DNA of 64,000 nt, taken from contig CAZJZD010000012.1 in NCBI GenBank assembly GCA_964550405.1, positions 754 through 64,753 on the forward strand. Direction: 5' to 3'. The DNA is from an uncultured Hydrogenophaga sp. GTDB lineage: Bacteria > Pseudomonadota > Gammaproteobacteria > Burkholderiales > Burkholderiaceae_C. The notes under the pieces are model-generated. The model was not told the origin of the DNA. It saw nothing but the letters and a program-made list of their open reading frames with translations, and made no database searches. This document shows positions 35,044-53,216 of this stretch, piece by piece (the first letter of the stretch is position 1; the number at the start of each line of letters is the position of its first letter). Position numbers and translations under genes: made by a program.

Positions 35044-36020
35044 GCGAGCAGCCCGCGCGTATTCGTTGCATTGCCATCGCCGGTCCCACGGCCAGCGGCA
35101 AGAGCGCCGCCTCGTTGGCGATTGCCCAGCGCTGGCCGGTCGAGATCATCAGCGTCGATTCGGCCCTGGTCTACCGCGGCATGGACATTGGCACCGCCAA
35201 GCCCACGCCCGCCGAGCAGGCGCAGGTGCCCCACCACCTGATCGACACCACCGACCCGCTGCACGCCTACAGCGCCGCCGACTTCGTGCGCGATGCCCAG
35301 AGACTCATCGGCGAGATCACCGCGCGTGGACGCACGCCCCTGCTGGTGGGCGGCACCTTGCTGTACTTCAAGGCGCTCATGCAGGGCCTGGACGACATGC
35401 CGCGCGCCGACGCCCATGTGCGCGCGCGCATCGAAGCCGCCGCCGCCGCGCACGGCTGGCCTGCCCTGCACGCCGAACTGGCCCGGGTCGATCCGGTCAC
35501 CGCGGCCCGGCTCGCGCCCAACGACTCACAGCGCATCCAGCGCGCGCTCGAAGTGTTCGAGGTCTCGGGCCAGCCCCTGTCGGCCCTGCAAACCGGGCAG
35601 CAGCGACAGCACCACAACCCCATCGCCCCCGGCGCCCTGCTCAGCCTGGAGCCCGCCGACCGCGCCTGGCTGCACGGGCGCATCGCTGAACGCTTCGACG
35701 CCATGCTGGCCGCCGGCTTCATCGACGAAGTGAAAACCCTGCGCGCCCGAGGCGACCTGCACCCCGACCTGCCGTCCATGCGCTGCGTGGGCTACCGCCA
35801 GGCCTGGGAAGCGCTGGAAGCCGCCGGTGATGCACCGCTGACAGCCGAGCAACAGACCGAACTGCGCGACCGAGGCATCTTCGCCACGCGCCAGCTCGCC
35901 AAACGCCAGATCACCTGGCTGCGCTCCATGCCCGAACGCGTGGTCGTGCCCTGCGACGCGCCCGACGCGCTGGCGCAGGTGCTTCGCTGGGCCGAACAGC
36001 ATCTCGGGAAACCCGCATGA
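35040..36020 (+). CDS. miaA: tRNA dimethylallyltransferase
   Basis: [53 protein letters not shown]. Confidence 0.97.
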
Positions 36021-36703
36021 GCGCCACCGAAGGACTGCGCATCGAAGGCCTGGCCAAACGCTACGGCGACGCCGCGGTGTTCCAGTCGGTGGACCTGCAC
36101 ATCCCGCCCGGCGAATTCGTCGCCATCGTCGGCGAGTCGGGCGTGGGCAAGTCCAGCCTGCTCAACTGCATGGCCGCGCTCGACACCTGGAGCGAAGGCC
36201 GCATCACCCACGACGGCGTGGACCTGGGCCAGCTGGACGAAGCGCAGGCCGCGCACTGGCGGCGCGAACACCTGGGCTTTGTCTTCCAGGCTTTCCACGT
36301 GCTGCCGCACCTGGACGTGGCGCAGAACGTGGCCCTGCCGCTGTTGCTGCTCAACCGGCCGGACCCGGCCCGCGTGGCGCAGATGCTGGACGCGGTCGGC
36401 CTGCAAGGCCTGGGCGAACGCCTGCCTTCGCAACTGTCCGGCGGGCAGCTGCAACGCGTGGCCATCGCGCGTGCGCTGGTGCACAAGCCCCGCCTGATCC
36501 TGGCCGACGAACCCACCGGCAACCTGGACCCGCGCACCGCCGCACAGGTGATGGACGTGCTGGTCGCGCAGGCGCGCGAACACGGCAGTTCACTGGTGCT
36601 GGTCACGCACTCCGAAGCAGCGGCAGCACGGGCAGACCGGGTGCTGCACCTGACGGCTCAGGGGTTGCAAGACGGTTCGCCTGCAGCTGGTCACATCCAG
36701 TGA
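36017..36703 (+). CDS. ABC ATP-binding protein (LolD/YbbA-like)
   Basis: [37 protein letters not shown]; no adjacent permease. Confidence 0.9.
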
Positions 36704-36778: not shown

Positions 36779-36884
36779 TGGGGATTTTTCGTTCAGCAGC
36801 GGTTGTTACAAACCGAAACTCAGCAAAAAGTACCCATTCAACTGCCTCCAGCAGTGCTTTTGACCCTGTTTTTTCGTGCCAAAC

Positions 36885-39800
36885 ATGATCATCGTCCACC
36901 GCCTGTTCAATCATCCCGTTGTCCGCACAGCCTTGGTGTTGACGCTTGGATCAGTCGCCATCTCAGCCCTGCCCCAGCACAGCCTCACGCCAGGCCAGTT
37001 CGCCGTGAACGATGCCGGAGCAGCAACCTACGGCATCCCCATCTCGGTCGCTCCAGGGGTGGGAGGGTTGAGCCCTAAGCTGACACTGCAGTACAGCTCA
37101 CAGGCGCCCAACGGTGTCTTTGGGGTGGGCTGGACGCTGTCTGGCGTTTCTTCCATCACGCGTTGTGCCAAGACAACGGCCGAAGACGGCGACCGGGTCG
37201 GCGTGCAGAACAACGCCACAGACCTGTTCTGCCTGGATGGGCAAAAACTGCGAGTGGTCAACGGACTTGCATATGGGGCGGCGGGCGCCCAGTACCGTAC
37301 CTCCATCGACACCTATGGACGCATTACGTCTCAGGGCAATGTGGCCGGTGGTCCGCAGTACTTCACGCTGGAGGCCAAGACAGGCGAGATCTACACCTTC
37401 GGCGGAACTGATGCCAGTCGCCTGGAGCACCCCAGCAAGGGCGTGGTTCGCACATGGATGGTCAGCGAGATCAAGGATCGCTACAACAACCGCATCAGCT
37501 TCTCATACAGCAAGAACCTCACACTGGGGGAGCAATTGCTGACCAGCGTTGACTACAGCAACGGCCGTGTCCAGCTGGACTACGAGGCTCGTCCCGAGAA
37601 CGACAGAATCCTCAAATTCGACGACGGGGTTGAATACGGTTCCACCAACTCCAGGGTCAGTGCCATCACCGTGGCGCACTCACCCGTGATCAGCGGTTCG
37701 CCCACGATCACCACTTTCAAGACCTACCAGCTGCAATACACGCAAAGCCAGGCCAGCCAGCGCAGCATGCTCAGGTCGATCAAGGAATGCGCTCCGGATG
37801 GCTCTTGTTTGCCAGCCACCACGCTGAACTATCGGGATGGCGTGCCGGGCTCATTCCGTGACGTGGGTGCAGCACCTGCCATTTCGACTCCCAACGGACT
37901 GCGGGACACCGAGGGCAATGGAAAGCAGTCTGTCTACAACTTTCGGACGCCGCCCTACTACGAAGACGTAGCGCTTTGGGATGTTGATGGCGATGGACGA
38001 ACGGATTTGTTGACTAAAAAGTTGCAACTCAACGAACAATCAACACCGACGCAGGAAATTATTGAGTACGCCAATGGCACAAAAACCTCCCGCACCTGGG
38101 ACTATCAGAACCATATACGGTGTTTTGCGGATATCAATGGCGATGGGATCAGCGAGAGCATTCGATTTGTCTCAAAATTTGTAGGCGGATCCAATTCTGG
38201 CACCACGGTTTATTCGGTCTCTGAGACTTTTGGAAACACCAGCATCCTCTTGGGTAACAACGTTCCTGTTTCATGTCACTCTATTGATATTGACGGAGAT
38301 GGACGCGCCGAAGTTTTTGTGAGCATGTATAGCGGGAGCCCAATTAACCTGACACACAAAAACGGGGCATTCTCGACCTTACCATATACACCTGAATTCA
38401 ACTACACATCAATCAAATTCGGCGACTTCAACGGAGACGGAAAGACGGACACGGTTCGCAGCTCCTCATTCGCCGGCCCCGCTGCATCGACATATTTATC
38501 CTCGGGCTCTGGCCTGAACGGACGCACCGCTTGGTCAACGGCCGTCGGTGGAATTGCATGTACTGGGGATTTTAATGGTGATGGCCGCACAGACATCCTG
38601 GGCGGTCGCAACCAGTTATTTCTATCCAATGGCAGCTCGGCGACCATCGTGAGCCAAAATGTCGTCTCCTACACCGGAAGCTTCTCCAGCAACATATGTG
38701 GAGACTTCAATGGTGATGGCTTGATGGATATCGTTTCTGGTCAACGCTATTGGTACAACCAGTTGCCAGCAGATGTGGATCGATTGGAGGCCGTTGACAA
38801 TGGGGCTGGGTTTATCCAGCGTGTGGAGTACAAGCCCATCACCGACAACAGCGTCTATACGAAGGGCGTCGGTGCGGCCTACCCTCAGACAGAAATGCAG
38901 ACCCCGATCATCGTGGTCAGCCGAGTGCAGTCGGGGAATGACTCGCAAAAGTGGCAGAACACCAGCTACCGCTACGCCGCCTTGCGGGCGGATCTGAGGC
39001 GCAGTGGCACCCAGGGTTTTGAGCGGGTGACATCCGTCAACGAAGGCACTGGCGTCAGTGTCGCCACACACTATCACCAGAACTTCCCTCTCACCGGTCT
39101 TCGCTCACGGATGCACAAGTATGTGGGTAGCGAGATCGCTCCGCATTCCTTGGAAGACACCACCTTTGGCTACATGACCCGTACGCTGGCGGCATTGCCT
39201 GCGCATCAGGCCGCGCAGGTGCATCTCAATCAGATCACGACAACGTTTTATGACCTCAAGCAACTCGGGGTCAAAACCGGCACCCTCAAGGAAAGCACCG
39301 AAGAATTCGATTCATTTGGTTTCCCGACAACCCAGAAGACGGAGCGACTTGACGGCAATGGTGTTCTGACCAGTTCAACCCAGCAAAGCCACACGTACAG
39401 CCATCAAGAGGCGACTTGGTTGCTTGGTCAGTTGACCAGGACCACCACCGCGGCGCAAAACCATCGAACCTTGCCCGCCACCGCCCCGCCGCCCTCGCCT
39501 TTGACGGTTCAGCTCAATACCACCGAGGTAGTCGCCAATCCAACGGGGCCGGGGCTCTGGAGCGGTACGCTCTCTGTCACGGCACAAGGCGCGACGCCAC
39601 CCTACTCCTACGCTTGGACGCGCATGACTGGCAACCGCACCGCCTTCTCAAACGCCGGAGTTGCGAGCCCGACGATATCGGCCACACTCGCCGCAGGTGA
39701 GGAGTTCGAAGAGACTTTGCGGGTGACGGTCACGGATGCCAACGGGGTTTCAGACTCCCGCGAGGTTGTTGTTCGCTACGTCACGCCGTTCCCATTCACG

Positions 39801-40421
39801 TCAACGATCACCGCGAACACCTCCAACTACAACCTGCGTGCGGCTGCAGTCGCTGCGGGATGGAACCAGACATCGCAGTTGCGAGCGGTGGTCACCATCA
39901 ACGCGGGTGTGATGGTCTCGGCCAATACCGTGAGCGCCTACGCTTTTGACACCGGTGCAGGCTTCCCGGCGGGCAGCACCCTTGCACTGATCAACAACGG
40001 CTCCATCATCGGCATGGGAGGAGCCGGCGGAGCGGGCGGGATGTTCGGAGCCCAGGGCGCGCCAGGTCAAGCTGGGGGGCCTGCCCTGAGAGCGCAGTCA
40101 CCTTTGGTCCTGACGAACAACGGAACCATCGCATCCGGTGGCAATGGTGGTGCTGGCGGAGCAGGATGGACCAGATCGACGAGCAGAGCTGACATGTATA
40201 TGTCGGGAGCGAGGGGAGGCGGAGGCCGTTCCGGAGCGACCAACTCTGCGGGGGGGAACCCGGGCACCGCTGCAGCACCCGGAGCAGCCTCTTCACCCAC
40301 TGGGGCCCCAGCCTCTGCTACAAGCCAACCCGGCGGCCAATACGGCGGGGGTGCTGCGGTAGTGGGCAATGGCAACGTCGAGTGGCAAACCACCGGCTCG
40401 CGCCTGGGCGCGCTGAACTGA
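36885..40421 (+). CDS. TcB-like RHS N-terminal half: signal peptide, SpvB, FG-GAP propeller, midN-like region, Ig-like domain and Gly-rich gp38-like adhesin domain
   Basis: GAATYGIPISVAPGVGGLSPKLTLQYSS..NGVFGVGW; six D(F/I/V)(N/D)GDG repeats; PPYSYAW..VTVTDANG; INNGSIIGMGGAGG..GGAAVVGNGNVEW; alternative GTG at 36876. Confidence 0.8.
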   Translation: MIIVHRLFNHPVVRTALVLTLGSVAISALPQHSLTPGQFAVNDAGAATYGIPISVAPGVGGLSPKLTLQYSSQAPNGVFGVGWTLSGVSSITRCAKTTAEDGDRVGVQNNATDLFCLDGQKLRVVNGLAYGAAGAQYRTSIDTYGRITSQGNVAGGPQYFTLEAKTGEIYTFGGTDASRLEHPSKGVVRTWMVSEIKDRYNNRISFSYSKNLTLGEQLLTSVDYSNGRVQLDYEARPENDRILKFDDGVEYGSTNSRVSAITVAHSPVISGSPTITTFKTYQLQYTQSQASQRSMLRSIKECAPDGSCLPATTLNYRDGVPGSFRDVGAAPAISTPNGLRDTEGNGKQSVYNFRTPPYYEDVALWDVDGDGRTDLLTKKLQLNEQSTPTQEIIEYANGTKTSRTWDYQNHIRCFADINGDGISESIRFVSKFVGGSNSGTTVYSVSETFGNTSILLGNNVPVSCHSIDIDGDGRAEVFVSMYSGSPINLTHKNGAFSTLPYTPEFNYTSIKFGDFNGDGKTDTVRSSSFAGPAASTYLSSGSGLNGRTAWSTAVGGIACTGDFNGDGRTDILGGRNQLFLSNGSSATIVSQNVVSYTGSFSSNICGDFNGDGLMDIVSGQRYWYNQLPADVDRLEAVDNGAGFIQRVEYKPITDNSVYTKGVGAAYPQTEMQTPIIVVSRVQSGNDSQKWQNTSYRYAALRADLRRSGTQGFERVTSVNEGTGVSVATHYHQNFPLTGLRSRMHKYVGSEIAPHSLEDTTFGYMTRTLAALPAHQAAQVHLNQITTTFYDLKQLGVKTGTLKESTEEFDSFGFPTTQKTERLDGNGVLTSSTQQSHTYSHQEATWLLGQLTRTTTAAQNHRTLPATAPPPSPLTVQLNTTEVVANPTGPGLWSGTLSVTAQGATPPYSYAWTRMTGNRTAFSNAGVASPTISATLAAGEEFEETLRVTVTDANGVSDSREVVVRYVTPFPFTSTITANTSNYNLRAAAVAAGWNQTSQLRAVVTINAGVMVSANTVSAYAFDTGAGFPAGSTLALINNGSIIGMGGAGGAGGMFGAQGAPGQAGGPALRAQSPLVLTNNGTIASGGNGGAGGAGWTRSTSRADMYMSGARGGGGRSGATNSAGGNPGTAAAPGAASSPTGAPASATSQPGGQYGGGAAVVGNGNVEWQTTGSRLGALN

Positions 40422-49607: not shown

Positions 49608-50818
49608 ACCAGACCTTTGCCGTGCGCTACCTGCGCCTGGGTGACGACCGGGTCAGCGAAGAACGCCTGCAGGCCGAAACCGAAGCGGGACTGCGCCAGC
49701 AACTGGCGGCTCAAGGTTTTACTGTGCTCTCGGTTCGTGGTGCGTCCCCACCCACCTTCTCACGATCCAGAAAACCCCAACGCGGCCGCTTCGCTCTGTT
49801 CTGCCGGGAGGTCAGCACGCTGATCCAGGCGGGTATGACGGTGGTGGAGGCGGTGGACACGCTCAGCGCCCGTGAGCGGCTGGCCGGGCAGGCGGACAGC
49901 CTGGCGGCGCAGCTGCTGGGTGAACTGGAGCAGGGAATGTCTTTGTCGCAGGCGCTGCAGCGGCTGCCCGATGCGCCAGCGGTGCTGGTGGCGGCGGTGC
50001 GCGCGGGCGAACGCACCAGCGACCTGGCTCAGGCGTTGACGGATTACCTGCAGTTCGACACCCTGGTCGAGCAACTGCGTCGCAAGGTTGTGAGTGCGGC
50101 GATCTACCCGGCACTGGTCACCGCGCTGGGCGTTGGTATCTCGCTGTTCTTGTTGCTGGTGGTCATGCCCAACTTTGCGCGCATGTACACCAATCTGCGT
50201 GGTGGTGGCATGGGCGGCGGCGGTGGTCCCACCAGCTGGATGATCGCTCTGGCGCAATGGGTGAGCGCGCATCAGGTCGCCACGCTGACGGGTGTCGCGC
50301 TGGCTTTGTTGGCGCTGGGGTTGTGGATATGGAGCGGCGCCGCACGGCGGCAAGTGCTGGCCCTGGCGCTGCAAGTGCCGTGGGTGCGCATGAGGGTGGA
50401 GGATTTCCAGCTGGCCATGCTCTACCAGGCGCTCGCGCTGATGCTCAAGGGCGGCTACCCCATGACCGAAGCGCTGCAGGTGGCCAGCCGTTCGGCGCTG
50501 GACGCCCGCCTGACGGTGGCCCTGCAACAGGCTTTGCAGCGCATCGAACAGGGGGGTGCGGTGGCCCAGGCACTGGCAGACGCGCGGCTGTGCGATGAGG
50601 TGGGACGGCGCTTGATGGCGGCGGCCGAGCGCAACGGGGACTTTCACCTGGCGGCCGACGTGGTCTCGCGCCTGCACCGCGAGCGCTTTGAGCTCTTTGT
50701 GGAGCGCCTGACCCGCATCGTCGAACCGGTGCTGCTGATGGCCGTGGCCCTGATGGTGGGCGGCATCGTCGTCATGATGTACCTGCCGGTGTTCGACATG
50801 GCCACCCGGCTGCGCTGA
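49604..50818 (+). CDS. gspF: T2SS inner-membrane platform protein
   Basis: VSTLIQAG, AGERTSDL, VVSAAIYP, IVEPVLL, MYLPVF. Confidence 0.9.
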   Translation: MNQTFAVRYLRLGDDRVSEERLQAETEAGLRQQLAAQGFTVLSVRGASPPTFSRSRKPQRGRFALFCREVSTLIQAGMTVVEAVDTLSARERLAGQADSLAAQLLGELEQGMSLSQALQRLPDAPAVLVAAVRAGERTSDLAQALTDYLQFDTLVEQLRRKVVSAAIYPALVTALGVGISLFLLLVVMPNFARMYTNLRGGGMGGGGGPTSWMIALAQWVSAHQVATLTGVALALLALGLWIWSGAARRQVLALALQVPWVRMRVEDFQLAMLYQALALMLKGGYPMTEALQVASRSALDARLTVALQQALQRIEQGGAVAQALADARLCDEVGRRLMAAAERNGDFHLAADVVSRLHRERFELFVERLTRIVEPVLLMAVALMVGGIVVMMYLPVFDMATRLR

Positions 50819-50851
50819 GCGACGCGGCACCAACTTCTGTTTTTCCTCGAC

Positions 50852-52495
50852 ATGTCACAGGCCAACCCCACACATCGCCCCCCCACCGCCGAACAGCTGA
50901 TGCAGGCGATTGAGCGTGCGCGCGCAGGTGGGGCGGCAGATGATGGCGCTCTTTGGCAACGGCTGCAGACCGAGTTCGAGAACAGCACCTGGGCACCCGT
51001 GCTGCTCGCTCACCACGGCGTGACCGGGGTACCCGATTCGGCGCTGGAGCGGGCGCAGATTGCACGGGTTCCGGGGGCCGATGAAGGACTTCGGGTTGCT
51101 TTGCCAGATGGGGTGTTCCTGCTGTTCGACGACCCCTGGTCGGGCTCCGCCACCCGAAGCCTGCAGCGCATGGCTGCTGCAGGTGCGCGACTGGCCTTGG
51201 CACAGCCGGGACAGTTGCAGCGTTTGCGAAGACTTTTGCCCCAAGGCGCAGACCGCTCCGCTCAAGCGCCACCGGCCAAAACCCCAGGAACGGTGAACTC
51301 ACCCACGGCGATGAGCCCGGTGGTGGCTTTCGTGAGCCAGGCGATCGAACGCGCCTATTCCGACGGCGCCAGCGACATCCACTTCGAGACCGACCGGCAG
51401 GGCGTGGGCGTGAAGTACCGGCTCGACGGCGTCATGGCGCCCGGGCCTCGGCTGAACGATGCGCAGCGCGCCGAGGAGGTGATTTCGCGCATCAAGGTGC
51501 TGGCGCAACTGGACATCACCGAACGCCGGCGCCCGCAAGACGGGCGCATCCACTGGCAGCCTGAAGGATCGTCTGAAGCGGTGGATCTGCGCGTTTCCAT
51601 CATGCCCAGCATCTTCGGTGAGGATGCGGTGCTGCGGTTGCTGGACAAGGCTCAGCTGCGCCATAGCCAGAGCAGTGTCTCGCTGGATCTGTTGGGCTTT
51701 GGCGGCGAAGTAGCCGAGCGCATCCGCGACCTGGCTGCCCGCCCCCACGGCATGCTGCTGATCACCGGGCCTACCGGCAGCGGCAAGACTACCACCGTCT
51801 ATGCAGCGCTCACCGAAGTCAACGACGGGTTGGAGAAGATCATCACCATTGAAGACCCGGTGGAGTACGAGCTGCCCGGGGTGCTACAGATTCCGGTCAA
51901 CGAACAGAAGGGGTTGACCTTTGCCACCGGACTGCGCTCCATCCTGCGCCACGACCCGGACAAGATCCTCGTCGGCGAAATCCGTGACGCAGAAACCGCG
52001 CAGATTGCGGTGCAGTCCTCGCTGACCGGGCACCTGGTCTTCACCACCGTGCACGCCAACAGCCTGTTCGACGTGCTGGGGCGCTTCCAGCACTTCGGGA
52101 TTGAAGCCTTTGCGCTGGCTTCGGCGCTGAACGGTGTGGTGGTGCAGCGCTTGCTGCGTCAGGTTTGCCCGCAATGCACACAGTGGCGCGATCCTGCGCC
52201 GGACGAACAGACCAAGCTGAGCGCGTTGAGCCTGTCCGTGCCCACTCGAATCCCGGTGCCACAGGGCTGCCCACATTGCAGGCACACCGGCTACAAGGGA
52301 CGCTTTGTGGTGGCCGAGGTGCATGTGCTCAGTGACCAGGTTCGTGACCTGATGGTGGCCAAGGCGAGCATGAGCGAGTTCAAGCAGGTGGTCTATCAGG
52401 ATCCGTCGCAACGCCTGATCGCGCAAGCCATTGAAATGGTGCGGCAGGGCCGAACCACACTGGAGGAGGTGACCCGTGTGGTCGGTCTGGTCTGA
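50852..52495 (+). CDS. gspE: T2SS assembly ATPase
   Basis: GASDIHFE, LDITERRRPQDG, GPTGSGKTTT, IEDPVE, LRHDPD, CPQC and CPHC. Confidence 0.93.
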   Translation: MSQANPTHRPPTAEQLMQAIERARAGGAADDGALWQRLQTEFENSTWAPVLLAHHGVTGVPDSALERAQIARVPGADEGLRVALPDGVFLLFDDPWSGSATRSLQRMAAAGARLALAQPGQLQRLRRLLPQGADRSAQAPPAKTPGTVNSPTAMSPVVAFVSQAIERAYSDGASDIHFETDRQGVGVKYRLDGVMAPGPRLNDAQRAEEVISRIKVLAQLDITERRRPQDGRIHWQPEGSSEAVDLRVSIMPSIFGEDAVLRLLDKAQLRHSQSSVSLDLLGFGGEVAERIRDLAARPHGMLLITGPTGSGKTTTVYAALTEVNDGLEKIITIEDPVEYELPGVLQIPVNEQKGLTFATGLRSILRHDPDKILVGEIRDAETAQIAVQSSLTGHLVFTTVHANSLFDVLGRFQHFGIEAFALASALNGVVVQRLLRQVCPQCTQWRDPAPDEQTKLSALSLSVPTRIPVPQGCPHCRHTGYKGRFVVAEVHVLSDQVRDLMVAKASMSEFKQVVYQDPSQRLIAQAIEMVRQGRTTLEEVTRVVGLV

Positions 52496-53216
52496 ACGGG
52501 TGGATGTTTACTTGGGCACCGGCCTGGTGCTGGTTCAGCGTCCGGGCATGCCCTTGTGGACCTTTGCGCCACCGGCGACATGGCCACTGGCCGATGTGCT
52601 GCGGCAGGTGGACCAAGCGCTGGACCGGGGCAAAGCCAAGCCCTGGCGGTTGCACGTGTGCCTCTGCGCCGCGCTGTGTCCGCCGGTGGCGTTTATGGCG
52701 CCCGCTGGTGTCAGGCAGCATGCGGAGTTGCTGGCCATCGCCCGGGCCAGTGCTGCGCGGGCGTGGGATATGCCAGCTGAGCAAGCTGACCAGATTGTAT
52801 GCAGCCTGGATGCCCGTCACCATGGCCTGGCGGCGGCCATGCTGGAGGGCACCCACCGGGTGATTGCCCAGTGGGCCACAGAGCAGAAGGGCCGACTCGC
52901 CAGTCTTCGGCCCATTTGGGCTGCTGCCACGGCTGCGAAGGCATGCGCAGGACCGCAAGTAGCAGGTGTGGCGGTGCTGGAGCCAGATGCGCTGACGGTC
53001 TTGCGTCTGCAACCGACGGTTGCCGTGCGTGCCAGAAGCTATGCAGGGCGATACGAAGCTGCAGATGCGGCGTCTCGGCTGGCCAAGATGTGCGATCAGG
53101 AAGCTGAATCCGAGCGAAGAACGGGTGTGGCGATGAGGTTCACCCGAGAGCCTGCACCGACTTTGTGGACGAAGGGGCCAACTGCCTGGGCGAAGCACTG
53201 GAGCGTGCTGCCATGA
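52476..53216 (+). CDS. Hypothetical protein, positional GspL-cytoplasmic/PilM-like component
   Basis: Overlap-coupled between gspE and PilN-like gene; no clear motif. Confidence 0.45.
   Translation: MWSVWSERVDVYLGTGLVLVQRPGMPLWTFAPPATWPLADVLRQVDQALDRGKAKPWRLHVCLCAALCPPVAFMAPAGVRQHAELLAIARASAARAWDMPAEQADQIVCSLDARHHGLAAAMLEGTHRVIAQWATEQKGRLASLRPIWAAATAAKACAGPQVAGVAVLEPDALTVLRLQPTVAVRARSYAGRYEAADAASRLAKMCDQEAESERRTGVAMRFTREPAPTLWTKGPTAWAKHWSVLP

What the first reader, a model, noticed from the sequence alone, without database searches (positions are those of the whole stretch)
39496..40421. Phage gp38-like polyglycine adhesin fused to a toxin shell subunit
After an Ig/PKD-like domain comes NYNLRAA..VVTINAGV..LINNGSIIGMGGAGGAGG..GQAGGPAL..LTNNGTIASGGNGG..GGAAVVGNGNVEWQTTGSRLG. 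This order of Gly-rich motifs and terminal Trp matches my recall of T2/T6/S16-type gp38 tail-fibre adhesins, which bind outer-membrane proteins (established for gp38). Inference: a captured phage receptor-binding domain gives the toxin bacterial target specificity in place of TcA or T6SS.
Basis: partly seen in the sequence, partly recalled or inferred. Interest (0 to 1): 0.78.

Follow-up and report, generated by a model that had tools for sequence, protein, structure and literature searches.

The report
Phage adhesin fused to Rhs-toxin shell
A secreted bacterial toxin capsule in a Hydrogenophaga-like bacterium carries a complete copy of the receptor-binding tip protein of phage tail fibres, so a phage part probably aims a diffusible antibacterial toxin at its target cells.

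Summary
ORF A (36876-40421, 1181 aa) is a Sec-signal-bearing TcB-like half-shell: SpvB domain, FG-GAP propeller, TcdB_midN. Its full-length model matches TcdB2/YenB at E about 1e-33. It ends in a PKD-like Ig domain and a 210-aa gp38-type module. That module models at pLDDT 88.8. Its only significant PDB fold match is phage PP01 gp38 (E 1.4e-7, TM 0.62), and a family profile hits phage S16 gp38 (E 3.9e-7).

The closest cultured relatives are stand-alone 258-278-aa proteins encoded right after tail-fibre genes of T7-like phages infecting Sphaerotilus and Limnohabitans, in the producer's own bacterial order.

ORF B (40443-43970) supplies the rest of the Rhs shell, an unknown toxin tip and an adjacent immunity-like ORF. 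A fused homologue joins A residue 855 directly to B residue 32, so the PKD-gp38 cassette sits at a fission point.

It flanks this gene pair in all seven loci with enough flanking sequence. The genome has no detectable TcA.

Best reading: a T2SS-exported Rhs bacteriocin aimed by a captured phage adhesin. Binding, secretion and killing are untested. I rate it a new variant of a known kind, with moderately high interest.

The parts
36876..40421 (+). Gene A: TcB-like half-shell protein with a C-terminal PKD-gp38 cassette (1181 aa from GTG; 1178 aa from ATG at 36885)
   Evidence: ORF list and translation. Pfam SpvB, FG-GAP, TcdB_midN. Full-length AF2 model matches TcdB2/TcdB1/YenB at E 1e-33 to 1e-27.
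36885..36980 (+). Predicted Sec signal peptide of A (MIIVHRLFNHPVVRTALVLTLGSVAISALPQHS)
   Evidence: Read from the sequence: a basic n-region and a hydrophobic core (KD 2.36). Homologues have clearer signal peptides ending ANA/Q or AHA/Q. No signal-peptide predictor was available.
37014..37529 (+). SpvB/TcB N-terminal domain (aa 47-218)
   Evidence: Pfam PF03534 E=6.6e-16. PDB sequence hits to the SpvB N-domain, YenB and TcdB1.
37893..38795 (+). FG-GAP/VCBS beta-propeller region (aa about 340-640; six DxDGDG-type repeats)
   Evidence: Pfam FG-GAP_3 E=7e-23 and FG-GAP E=5e-14. Strand pattern in the AF2 model.
38700..39461 (+). TcdB_toxin_midN and the following shell hairpins, to the end of the A part of the shell (aa 609 to about 862)
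   Evidence: Pfam PF12256 at 39.3 bits, cut-off 24.8. Long beta-hairpins in the model. The same-genus homologue ends here. The fused homologue continues from A855 into B32.
39495..39779 (+). Pro-rich linker and PKD-like Ig domain (aa 874-968)
   Evidence: Weak Pfam K319L-like_PKD and SprB hits. PDB sequence hits to Ig-like phage decoration proteins 8zvi and 5lxk.
39789..40418 (+). gp38-type adhesin module (aa 972-1181): N-terminal beta subdomain plus polyglycine-II sandwich, with glycine-rich motifs alternating with variable loops and a conserved terminal Trp
40443..43970 (+). Gene B: signal peptide (aa 1-32), RHS/YD shell, Rhs-associated core (aa 844-932, DPTG at 43227-43238), unknown toxin tip (aa 933-1175, 43239-43967)
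   Evidence: Pfam RHS_repeat E=6e-37 and NCBIfam Rhs_assc_core E=6.6e-20. PDB hits to Rhs cocoons. YDPDIGRF and DPTG motifs. The tip has no Pfam, PDB or database relative.
43976..44302 (+). Candidate immunity gene (108 aa), 5 nt after the stop codon of B, 46-47% GC
   Evidence: ORF and sequence. GC drop across the toxin tip and this ORF. No family hit. The role is inferred from position.
44501..44797 (+). Truncated IS200-like Y1 transposase fragment (98 aa)
   Evidence: Pfam Y1_Tnp E=1.5e-10, covering only profile positions 6-84 of 121.
44878..53216 (+). Linked divergent T2SS-like cluster: T2SSM_b (44878-45450), ORF199 (45308-45907), secretin with TPR/STN and a C-terminal cohesin domain (45917-48193), three pseudopilin genes (about 48193-49607), GspF-like (49604-50818), GspE-like ATPase (50852-52495), ORF246 (52476-53216)
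   Evidence: Pfam and NCBIfam hits, all below the equivalog cut-offs. Pseudopilin N-termini GFTLIELLVV. Synteny with A/B in other genomes.

Best explanation
Genes A and B encode the two halves of one Tc-BC-like Rhs cocoon that encloses a C-terminal toxin. Each half has its own Sec signal peptide. The adjacent, dedicated T2SS-like machine most likely moves them across the outer membrane. A small downstream ORF probably protects the producer. At the point where the ancestral single chain was split, A has acquired a cassette: a Pro-rich linker, a PKD-like Ig spacer and a complete phage gp38-type tip adhesin. In T-even phages this fold binds outer-membrane proteins through the variable loops between its glycine-rich motifs. 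Here the module most likely docks the released cocoon onto a surface receptor of competing bacteria, probably other Burkholderiales. That would make it the receptor-binding part of a diffusible Rhs bacteriocin. Shown here: the domain identities, the folds (predicted), the fission point, the phage relatives and their gene context, the T2SS linkage and the absence of TcA. Inferred: secretion by that T2SS, receptor binding, the antibacterial target, and how the toxin then crosses the target envelope, for which there is no evidence.
For: Module identity:
- Pfam GP38 E=3.4e-5; PHROG tail-fibre and host-specificity families.
- The family profile hits S16 gp38 6F45_D at E=3.9e-7.
- AF2 pLDDT 88.8. 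The only significant PDB fold hits are PP01 gp38 9v85 (E=1.4e-7, TM 0.62). BFVD hits are tail fibres and Gp38-domain proteins, down to E=1e-13.
- Conserved glycine-rich blocks alternate with indel-rich variable blocks.

Phage origin:
- tblastn against 50,697 phage records finds only three phages, infecting Sphaerotilus, Limnohabitans and Macromonas, at 61-70% identity over the N-subdomain.
- In the two annotated records the match is a stand-alone 258- or 278-aa gene immediately after the tail-fibre gene, or in the Limnohabitans phage a 748-aa gene in the same position.
- The module aligns end to end with both at 44-47% identity.
- There are 6720 family representatives; about half of the best 150 are 350 aa or shorter.
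- The producer is Hydrogenophaga-like: MiaA is 83-86% identical to named species.

Shell:
- Pfam SpvB, FG-GAP and midN; fold match to TcB at E about 1e-33.
- In the fused homologue G047, A residue 855 abuts B residue 32.
- The same-genus homologue G034 ends exactly where the cassette begins.

Recurrence: about 45 protein clusters combine SpvB with GP38, some with tandem PKD-GP38 cassettes.

Export:
- T2SS-like genes flank A/B in the window, G034, L002, L003, L034, the P0014 locus and G047.
- G004, G016 and G008 have an RHS gene next to the same cluster at contig ends.
- A preprint predicts gspG-linked Rhs families and cites Rhs-mediated cell-free inhibition (10.1101/2025.05.08.652813).

No TcA: PF18276 finds nothing, and the four high-GC3 ORFs of 2087-2870 aa that were scanned are not TcA.

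Antibacterial use: an adjacent AT-rich small ORF; the homologous locus L034 carries an Ntox28 tip followed by a small ORF.
Against: - No experiment shows binding, secretion or killing.
- The toxin tip has no recognisable family, so a bacterial target rests on the immunity-like ORF and on analogy.
- An assembled BC-type cocoon is, from published Tc structures, wider than the usual T2SS secretin channel, so export of the folded complex is mechanistically unclear.
- Nothing here explains how the toxin would cross the target outer and inner membranes without a TcA-like translocator.
- The window's module is one of the shortest in the family. It lacks one conserved glycine block, and aa 1143-1154 have pLDDT below 50, so it could be partly degenerate.
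- The Pfam GP38 score (24.2) is just under the gathering cut-off (25).
- The genome holds two T6SS loci, so T6SS use is not formally excluded.
- The control for the TcA family search matched nothing anywhere.
Confidence: 0.55

Rival explanations
1. Contact-dependent display. The cocoon is not released but held on the producer's surface or on a pseudopilus of the T2SS-like (type IV filament) machine, for example through the secretin's C-terminal cohesin domain or the propeller. The gp38 module then grips a neighbouring cell at contact.
For: The secretin has an unusual C-terminal cohesin domain, conserved in L002 and L003. Three to four pseudopilin genes lie in the cluster. The module also occurs in Bdellovibrio and in candidate-phyla-radiation (CPR) genomes, organisms that attach to other bacteria.
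Against: No anchor motif or dockerin was identified in A or B. The cluster has no retraction ATPase. The cited Xanthomonas and Ralstonia work reports cell-free Rhs activity.
Confidence: 0.15
2. The module binds something other than a bacterial competitor, such as a eukaryotic grazer or host surface glycan, or a matrix polysaccharide. In that case the system is a Tc-like anti-eukaryotic toxin.
For: The shell is Tc-BC-like, and classical Tc toxins act on animal cells (established knowledge). The toxin tip is unidentified.
Against: An immunity-like ORF follows the toxin. Homologue L034 carries Ntox28, a polymorphic-toxin RNase domain, followed by a small ORF. The nearest relatives of the module are adhesins of phages infecting the same bacterial order. 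No TcA was found.
Confidence: 0.12
3. The cassette has a structural or export role only, such as a folding cap for the split shell or a recognition signal for the T2SS-like machine, and does not determine the target.
For: It sits exactly at the fission point of the shell.
Against: T2SS-linked A proteins without the cassette exist: G034, and the 1065-aa SpvB protein in L004. The number of cassettes varies from 0 to 3. The variable loops are hypervariable, as in receptor-binding gp38.
Confidence: 0.08
4. The window's copy is a decaying relic of a once-functional adhesin.
For: It lacks one conserved glycine block. The last variable region is Ala/Pro/Ser-rich with pLDDT below 50.
Against: The frame is intact. 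The N-subdomain, the first glycine-rich blocks and the terminal GNxxxxW...G motif are conserved. The closest homologue, P0008, shares the same short form, which suggests a subfamily variant.
Confidence: 0.05

Closest known systems
gp38 long-tail-fibre tip adhesins of T-even-like phages (S16, T2, T6, PP01; Pfam PF05268; PDB 6F45, 9V85)
   Same: An N-terminal beta subdomain followed by a polyglycine-II sandwich. Conserved glycine-rich motifs alternate with hypervariable loops, and the C-terminal Trp is conserved. Supported by profile and fold matches. Closer stand-alone relatives follow tail-fibre genes in T7-like phages of Sphaerotilus and Limnohabitans.
   Different: It is not a stand-alone protein that caps a trimeric fibre. 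It is covalently fused, through a PKD-like domain, to a TcB-like shell protein that has a signal peptide. No phage genes are nearby, and this is the only copy in the genome. The receptor is unknown. One glycine block is missing.
Tc toxin BC subcomplex (TcdB2-TccC3, YenB-YenC)
   Same: SpvB N-domain, FG-GAP propeller, TcdB_midN and an RHS shell ending in an Rhs core with a DPxG cleavage motif and a variable toxin tip. The fold match is E about 1e-33.
   Different: The shell is split after about 860 residues rather than about 1470. Both chains carry Sec signal peptides. No TcA is present in the genome. The pair is linked to a T2SS-like cluster rather than a lysis cassette. It carries an adhesin cassette and has an immunity-like gene.
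T2SS(gspG)-linked Rhs toxin families of Xanthomonas and Ralstonia (bioRxiv 10.1101/2025.05.08.652813), with reported cell-free Rhs bacteriocin activity
   Same: Rhs toxins are genetically linked to type II secretion genes, not T6SS, and are predicted to be contact-independent.
   Different: That work does not mention a gp38-like or any other receptor-binding module. Whether those families share the SpvB-type partner was not tested here.
Receptor-binding domains of other diffusible or surface antibacterial toxins (colicins, S-type pyocins, CdiA) and tailocin fibres
   Same: The logic is the same: a modular receptor-binding part aims a polymorphic toxin at related bacteria, and an immunity gene sits next to the toxin.
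   Different: The fold is entirely different. The cargo is enclosed in an Rhs cocoon. There is no recognisable translocation domain.

Membership tests
gp38 adhesin family (Pfam PF05268) | Scores above the Pfam GP38 gathering threshold | tested here: inconclusive
   The isolated module scores 24.2 bits against a cut-off of 25, E=3.4e-5. The database's precomputed Pfam list gives PF05268 for the whole protein and for all 61 relatives found.
gp38 adhesin family (Pfam PF05268) | Sequence-profile similarity to a gp38 of solved structure, including the glycine-rich motifs and the terminal Trp | tested here: met
   Profile A1 against 6F45_D gives E=3.9e-7, and against 9v85 gives E=0.01. The Trp and the final Gly are aligned.
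gp38 adhesin family (Pfam PF05268) | Polyglycine-II sandwich fold | tested here: met
   Prediction only. AF2 pLDDT 88.8, pTM 0.85. Foldseek against the PDB finds 9v85_C (E=1.4e-7, TM 0.62) and nothing else significant.
gp38 adhesin family (Pfam PF05268) | Conserved glycine-rich motifs separated by hypervariable segments | tested here: met
   Column conservation alternates between 0.54-0.77 and 0.09-0.12, with 50-70% gaps in the variable blocks.
gp38 adhesin family (Pfam PF05268) | Stand-alone protein encoded next to a tail-fibre gene and attached to the fibre tip | tested here: not met
   It is fused to the C-terminus of a TcB-like protein and no phage genes are nearby. Phage relatives do meet this feature.
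gp38 adhesin family (Pfam PF05268) | Binds a bacterial outer-membrane receptor | not testable with these tools
   Needs binding assays.
Tc toxin TcB subunit | SpvB N-terminal domain, FG-GAP propeller and TcdB_toxin_midN | tested here: met
   E=6.6e-16, 7e-23 and 5e-10, all above their cut-offs.
Tc toxin TcB subunit | Overall fold of the TcB shell and propeller | tested here: met
   Foldseek hits to 6suf_F, 6h6e_F, 6l7i_F, 4igl and 4o9x at E 1e-33 to 1e-27. The model has mean pLDDT 71.8.
Tc toxin TcB subunit | Full-length TcB (about 1470 aa) including midC and its own RHS repeats | tested here: not met
   The shell part of A ends near aa 862. The remainder is on B, and it is contiguous in the fused homologue G047.
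Tc toxin TcB subunit | Works with a TcA translocator encoded in the genome | tested here: not met
   PF18276 has no match in the six-frame genome search, although the positive control was silent. The four ORFs of 2087-2870 aa that were scanned are not TcA.
Rhs polymorphic toxin (gene B) | RHS/YD repeats, an Rhs-associated core ending in DPxG, a variable C-terminal tip and an adjacent small ORF | tested here: met
   A different tip and a different downstream ORF occur in the same-genus homologue.
T2SS-linked Rhs toxins | Conserved genetic linkage to type II secretion genes | tested here: met
   Seven of seven loci with enough flanking sequence.
T2SS-linked Rhs toxins | Secretion depends on that T2SS; cell-free killing | not testable with these tools
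   Needs secretome and overlay assays.

The most novel reading that the evidence does not exclude
The PKD-gp38 cassette replaces the Tc 'A component'. It turns a T2SS-exported BC-type Rhs cocoon into a free bacteriocin that recognises the same outer-membrane receptors as local phages. The cassettes are exchanged repeatedly between phage tail fibres and toxins. If so, phage host range and toxin target range would be coupled: the two would share receptors, resistance to one could give resistance to the other, and a toxin's targets might be predicted from the hosts of phages with similar adhesins. It would also mean an Rhs cocoon can deliver its cargo into Gram-negative cells without either TcA or a T6SS.
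Probability: 0.4. Interest if true: 0.8.

Novelty: new variant of a known kind. Interest (0 to 1): 0.62.

Why it matters
Rhs and Tc cocoons are known to reach their targets through a TcA syringe or a T6SS spike. How the T2SS-linked Rhs families that appear to act in cell-free supernatant find and enter their targets is an open question. A phage tip adhesin fused to the shell gives a concrete hypothesis for the recognition step. It can be tested by deletion, binding assays and receptor mapping. The architecture recurs in about 45 protein clusters from Burkholderiales, Rhodocyclaceae and Bradyrhizobium-like bacteria. It also shows that a family of at least 6720 gp38-like modules (representatives at 50% identity) moves between phage fibres, bacterial surface proteins and toxins. 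That bears on how phage resistance and toxin resistance may be linked in natural communities.

Tried and rejected
The ORF frame was used instead.
- A single-sequence phmmer search of the module against the PDB gave only spurious formin hits. A family profile was needed.
- BLASTP with composition correction aligned only the last 16 residues to the phage protein. MAFFT and uncorrected BLASTP align it end to end, but their E-values are inflated by the glycine content. The robust figure is the tblastn result, E=5e-24 over the N-subdomain.
- The genome-contig scan with A1 collapsed onto a poly-Gly pattern and found nothing. The rerun with the N-subdomain alignment used one narrow pattern and returned only 7 loci, so taxonomic spread is under-sampled.
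- The genome search with PF05268 found nothing, not even in the window, which is a sensitivity limit. A local hmmsearch with A1 finds exactly one copy.
- The toxin tip gave no Pfam, PDB or database relative.
- The P0043 context look-up had no record. Locus L033 ends inside the RHS gene.
- The upstream ABC ATPase (36017-36703) was considered as part of the system and rejected, because it is not syntenic with A in other genomes.
- An assembly chimera was rejected. The same protein is recorded on three contigs, and the architecture recurs widely.


Full report
**1. What is at the coordinates**

The finding lies in the last quarter of a 1181-aa ORF, 36876-40421 on the + strand.

Gene A is followed 21 nt later by a 1175-aa ORF, 40443-43970, which I call gene B.

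GC3 is 0.67 for A and 0.75 for B, against about 0.9 for neighbouring housekeeping genes. The locus is present in only 2 of 37 genomes of the genus, the window's own included, plus one fragment at a contig end. It therefore looks like an accessory island.

**2. The N-terminal 870 residues are a TcB-like shell half**

- Pfam finds SpvB (E=6.6e-16), FG-GAP_3 (E=7e-23), FG-GAP, and TcdB_toxin_midN at 39 bits against a cut-off of 24.8.
- A PDB sequence search hits the SpvB N-domain, YenB and TcdB1.
- An AlphaFold2 model of the whole protein, built from a 33-sequence alignment, has mean pLDDT 71.8.
- Its best PDB matches are TcdB2-TccC3, TcdB1 and YenB, at E 7e-33 to 5e-27. The next class of hit, a T6SS Rhs, is at E 4e-10.

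"Toxin shell subunit" is therefore correct.

**3. The last 210 residues are a genuine gp38-type module**

- The isolated C-terminus hits Pfam GP38 at E=3.4e-5. The score is 24.2 bits, just under the cut-off of 25.
- It also hits PHROGs annotated as tail fibre or host specificity, up to E=8.9e-18.
- A database search restricted to this region found 61 relatives, all with PF05268 precomputed.
- I aligned 29 C-terminal modules as alignment A1. Its profile hits the solved Salmonella phage S16 gp38 (6F45_D) at E=3.9e-7 and the PP01 gp38 construct 9v85. The glycine-rich motifs, the terminal Trp and the final Gly are aligned.
- The AF2 model from A1 has pLDDT 88.8 and pTM 0.85.
- Foldseek against the PDB returns 9v85_C and 9v85_A (E=1.4e-7 and 5.5e-7, TM 0.62) and nothing else below E=1.
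- Against predicted viral structures it returns tail fibres and "Receptor-recognising protein Gp38" proteins, down to E=1e-13.
- Column conservation alternates between conserved glycine-rich blocks and indel-rich variable blocks, as in gp38.

One caveat applies. The window's copy and its closest homologue, P0008, lack one conserved glycine block, and aa 1143-1154 are modelled at pLDDT below 50.

**4. Where the module comes from**

A tblastn search against 50,697 phage records hits only three phages. They infect Sphaerotilus, Limnohabitans and Macromonas, and the matches are 61-70% identical over the N-terminal subdomain, with E down to 5e-24.

- In Sphaerotilus phage vB_SnaP-R1 (Autographiviridae) the match is gp43, a stand-alone 258-aa gene that starts where the annotated tail-fibre gene gp42 ends.
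- The Limnohabitans phage has the same arrangement: a 748-aa gene followed by a 278-aa gene.

This mirrors the gp37-gp38 arrangement of T-even phages. The whole module aligns end to end with both phage proteins at 44-47% identity (those E-values are inflated by glycine content).

An exhaustive profile search found 6720 representatives at E of 1e-3 or better, and 4915 at 1e-10 or better. About half of the best 150 are stand-alone proteins of 350 aa or fewer with the same short leader as the phage proteins. Only about 14 carry an SpvB N-terminus.

On a weakly resolved tree of the N-subdomain, SpvB-fused modules are interleaved with stand-alone ones. Well-supported branches alone force at least four changes of state. 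The window's module is up to 74% identical to a stand-alone protein.

The window's MiaA is 83-86% identical to MiaA of named Hydrogenophaga species. The producer and the hosts of the related phages therefore belong to the same order, Burkholderiales. The genome has no second copy of the module.

**5. Gene B and the fission point**

- B has a clear signal peptide, ending ALA/QVV.
- It has RHS repeats (E=6e-37) and an Rhs-associated core at aa 844-932.
- It carries the YDPDIGRF and DPTG motifs typical of the self-cleaving Rhs/TcC core.
- Its 243-aa tip has no Pfam, PDB or database relative.
- GC falls to 46-49% across the tip and a 108-aa ORF that starts 5 nt after the stop codon of B. That ORF is the candidate immunity gene.

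A same-genus homologue, G034, has B at 75% identity up to residue 983, followed by a different tip and a different downstream ORF. Its A protein ends exactly at "...LPATGAPN", where the window's A continues into the linker, PKD domain and gp38 module.

In genome G047 the two genes are one 2054-aa frame, in which A residue 855 abuts B residue 32. Residue 32 is the last residue of B's predicted signal peptide, so the join falls at B's mature N-terminus.

The cassette therefore sits precisely at the split of an ancestral single-chain BC shell.

Other homologues carry two or three tandem Ig-gp38 cassettes (P0004, P0006, P0019, P0043). In locus L003 a second cassette sits on a separate N-terminal RHS fragment.

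**6.

Downstream of the immunity ORF, after a truncated IS200-like fragment, lies a cluster of secretion genes:

- T2SSM_b
- a secretin with TPR and STN domains and a C-terminal cohesin domain
- three pseudopilin genes
- a GspF-like gene
- a GspE-like ATPase

All score far below the NCBIfam equivalog cut-offs, so this is a divergent member of the type II secretion / type IV filament group.

The same cluster flanks A/B-type genes in seven loci:

- the window
- G034
- metagenome loci L002 and L003
- L034, a Bradyrhizobium-like group whose RHS protein has an Ntox28 tip followed by a small ORF
- the P0014 locus, which lies inside a Tn7-like element
- G047

That is seven of seven loci with enough flanking sequence, in three different gene orientations.

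Three further same-genus genomes, G004, G016 and G008, have the orthologous cluster with an RHS gene at the adjacent contig end.

T2SS-linked A proteins without the cassette also exist: G034, and a 1065-aa SpvB protein in L004. The cassette is therefore not needed for the linkage.

A 2025 preprint independently reports gspG-linked Rhs families in Xanthomonas and Ralstonia. It cites Rhs-mediated inhibition by cell-free supernatant, and it mentions neither gp38 nor any receptor-binding part. Five literature searches found no description of an SpvB/TcB-gp38 fusion. The same is true of the Tc toxin genome survey PMC7861908, which I searched directly.

**7. TcA and T6SS**

- The TcA/TcB-binding domain family has no match in the six-frame genome search, although its positive control was silent.
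- The four high-GC3 ORFs of 2087-2870 aa that I scanned are a GH94 phosphorylase, a VgrG-Rhs fusion, a polyketide synthase and a CheA-like kinase. Six other high-GC3 ORFs in the list, of 1957-2008 aa and of 3606 and 4691 aa, were not scanned.
- The genome has two T6SS sheath genes on other contigs and a classical VgrG-Rhs.
- A and B carry signal peptides and have no PAAR, VgrG or adaptor domains.

**8. Mechanism**

The best-supported reading has four steps:

1. A and B are exported by the Sec pathway and released by the dedicated T2SS-like machine.
2. Together they form a BC-type cocoon around the cleaved toxin tip.
3. The Ig-spaced gp38 module projects from the shell and binds a surface receptor on competing Burkholderiales through its variable loops.
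4. The 108-aa protein protects the producer.

Shown here are the domain identities, the predicted folds, the fission point, the phage relatives, the linkage and the absence of TcA. Inferred are secretion by that machine, receptor binding, the bacterial target and the entry route.

Two weak points remain. An assembled cocoon is probably too wide for a standard secretin channel. Nothing here explains how the toxin crosses the target envelope.

The rival readings are surface or pseudopilus display, a non-bacterial ligand, a purely structural or export role, and a decaying copy. They are listed separately, each with its own test.

**9. Verdict**

The structural interpretation is supported, and the functional inference is plausible but untested. 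The finding is best described as a new variant of a known kind: an Rhs polymorphic toxin that uses a phage gp38-type adhesin as its aiming part and a dedicated T2SS-like exporter.

Noticed in passing
window 45917-48193: The secretin of the linked T2SS-like cluster has N-terminal TPR and STN regions and a C-terminal cohesin domain (E=2.7e-9). The cohesin domain is conserved in the L002 and L003 homologues. Its binding partner is unknown. It could tether cargo at the cell surface.
   Followed up: partly
window 44501-44797: A truncated IS200-like Y1 transposase fragment (98 aa) lies between the immunity-like ORF and the T2SS-like cluster. It is absent from the same-genus homologue G034.
   Followed up: partly
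window 43239-43967: The toxin tip of B has two parts. The first is an Ala/Gly-rich, mildly hydrophobic stretch (aa about 981-1060). The second is a basic region of about 115 aa containing WEHVIKEH. Neither has any detectable relative.
   Followed up: partly
L025, L027, L029 (Gracilibacteria, Patescibacteria, Peribacteria MAGs): gp38-like modules occur in candidate-phyla-radiation genomes. Their frames stay open for 490-881 aa only if TGA is read as Gly (table 25). Whether these are cell-surface proteins or phage genes was not examined.
   Followed up: no
L026, L028; proteins P0035, P0050: Bdellovibrio genomes encode long repeat proteins ending in the same module. This suggests use in attachment to prey.
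   Followed up: no
P0014 locus (ENA contig, no DNA held): An SpvB-GP38 gene, an RHS gene, an NHL-propeller gene and T2SS genes lie directly after TnsA, TnsB, TniB and TniQ genes. The whole system may be cargo of a Tn7-like transposon.
   Followed up: no
G000:C1:13637-20161 (own genome, other contig): The same genome also encodes a classical 2175-aa VgrG-Rhs fusion and two T6SS loci (C4, C14). It therefore has Rhs toxins for two different delivery routes.
   Followed up: partly
L003 13287-15218; L004 112-2124: In some relatives the shell is split into three genes, and a second gp38 cassette sits on the C-terminus of a 640-670-aa N-terminal RHS fragment.
   Followed up: partly
window 36017-36703: A LolD/bacteriocin-export-like ABC ATPase gene lies immediately upstream of A. 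It is not syntenic with A in other genomes, so it is probably unrelated.
   Followed up: partly
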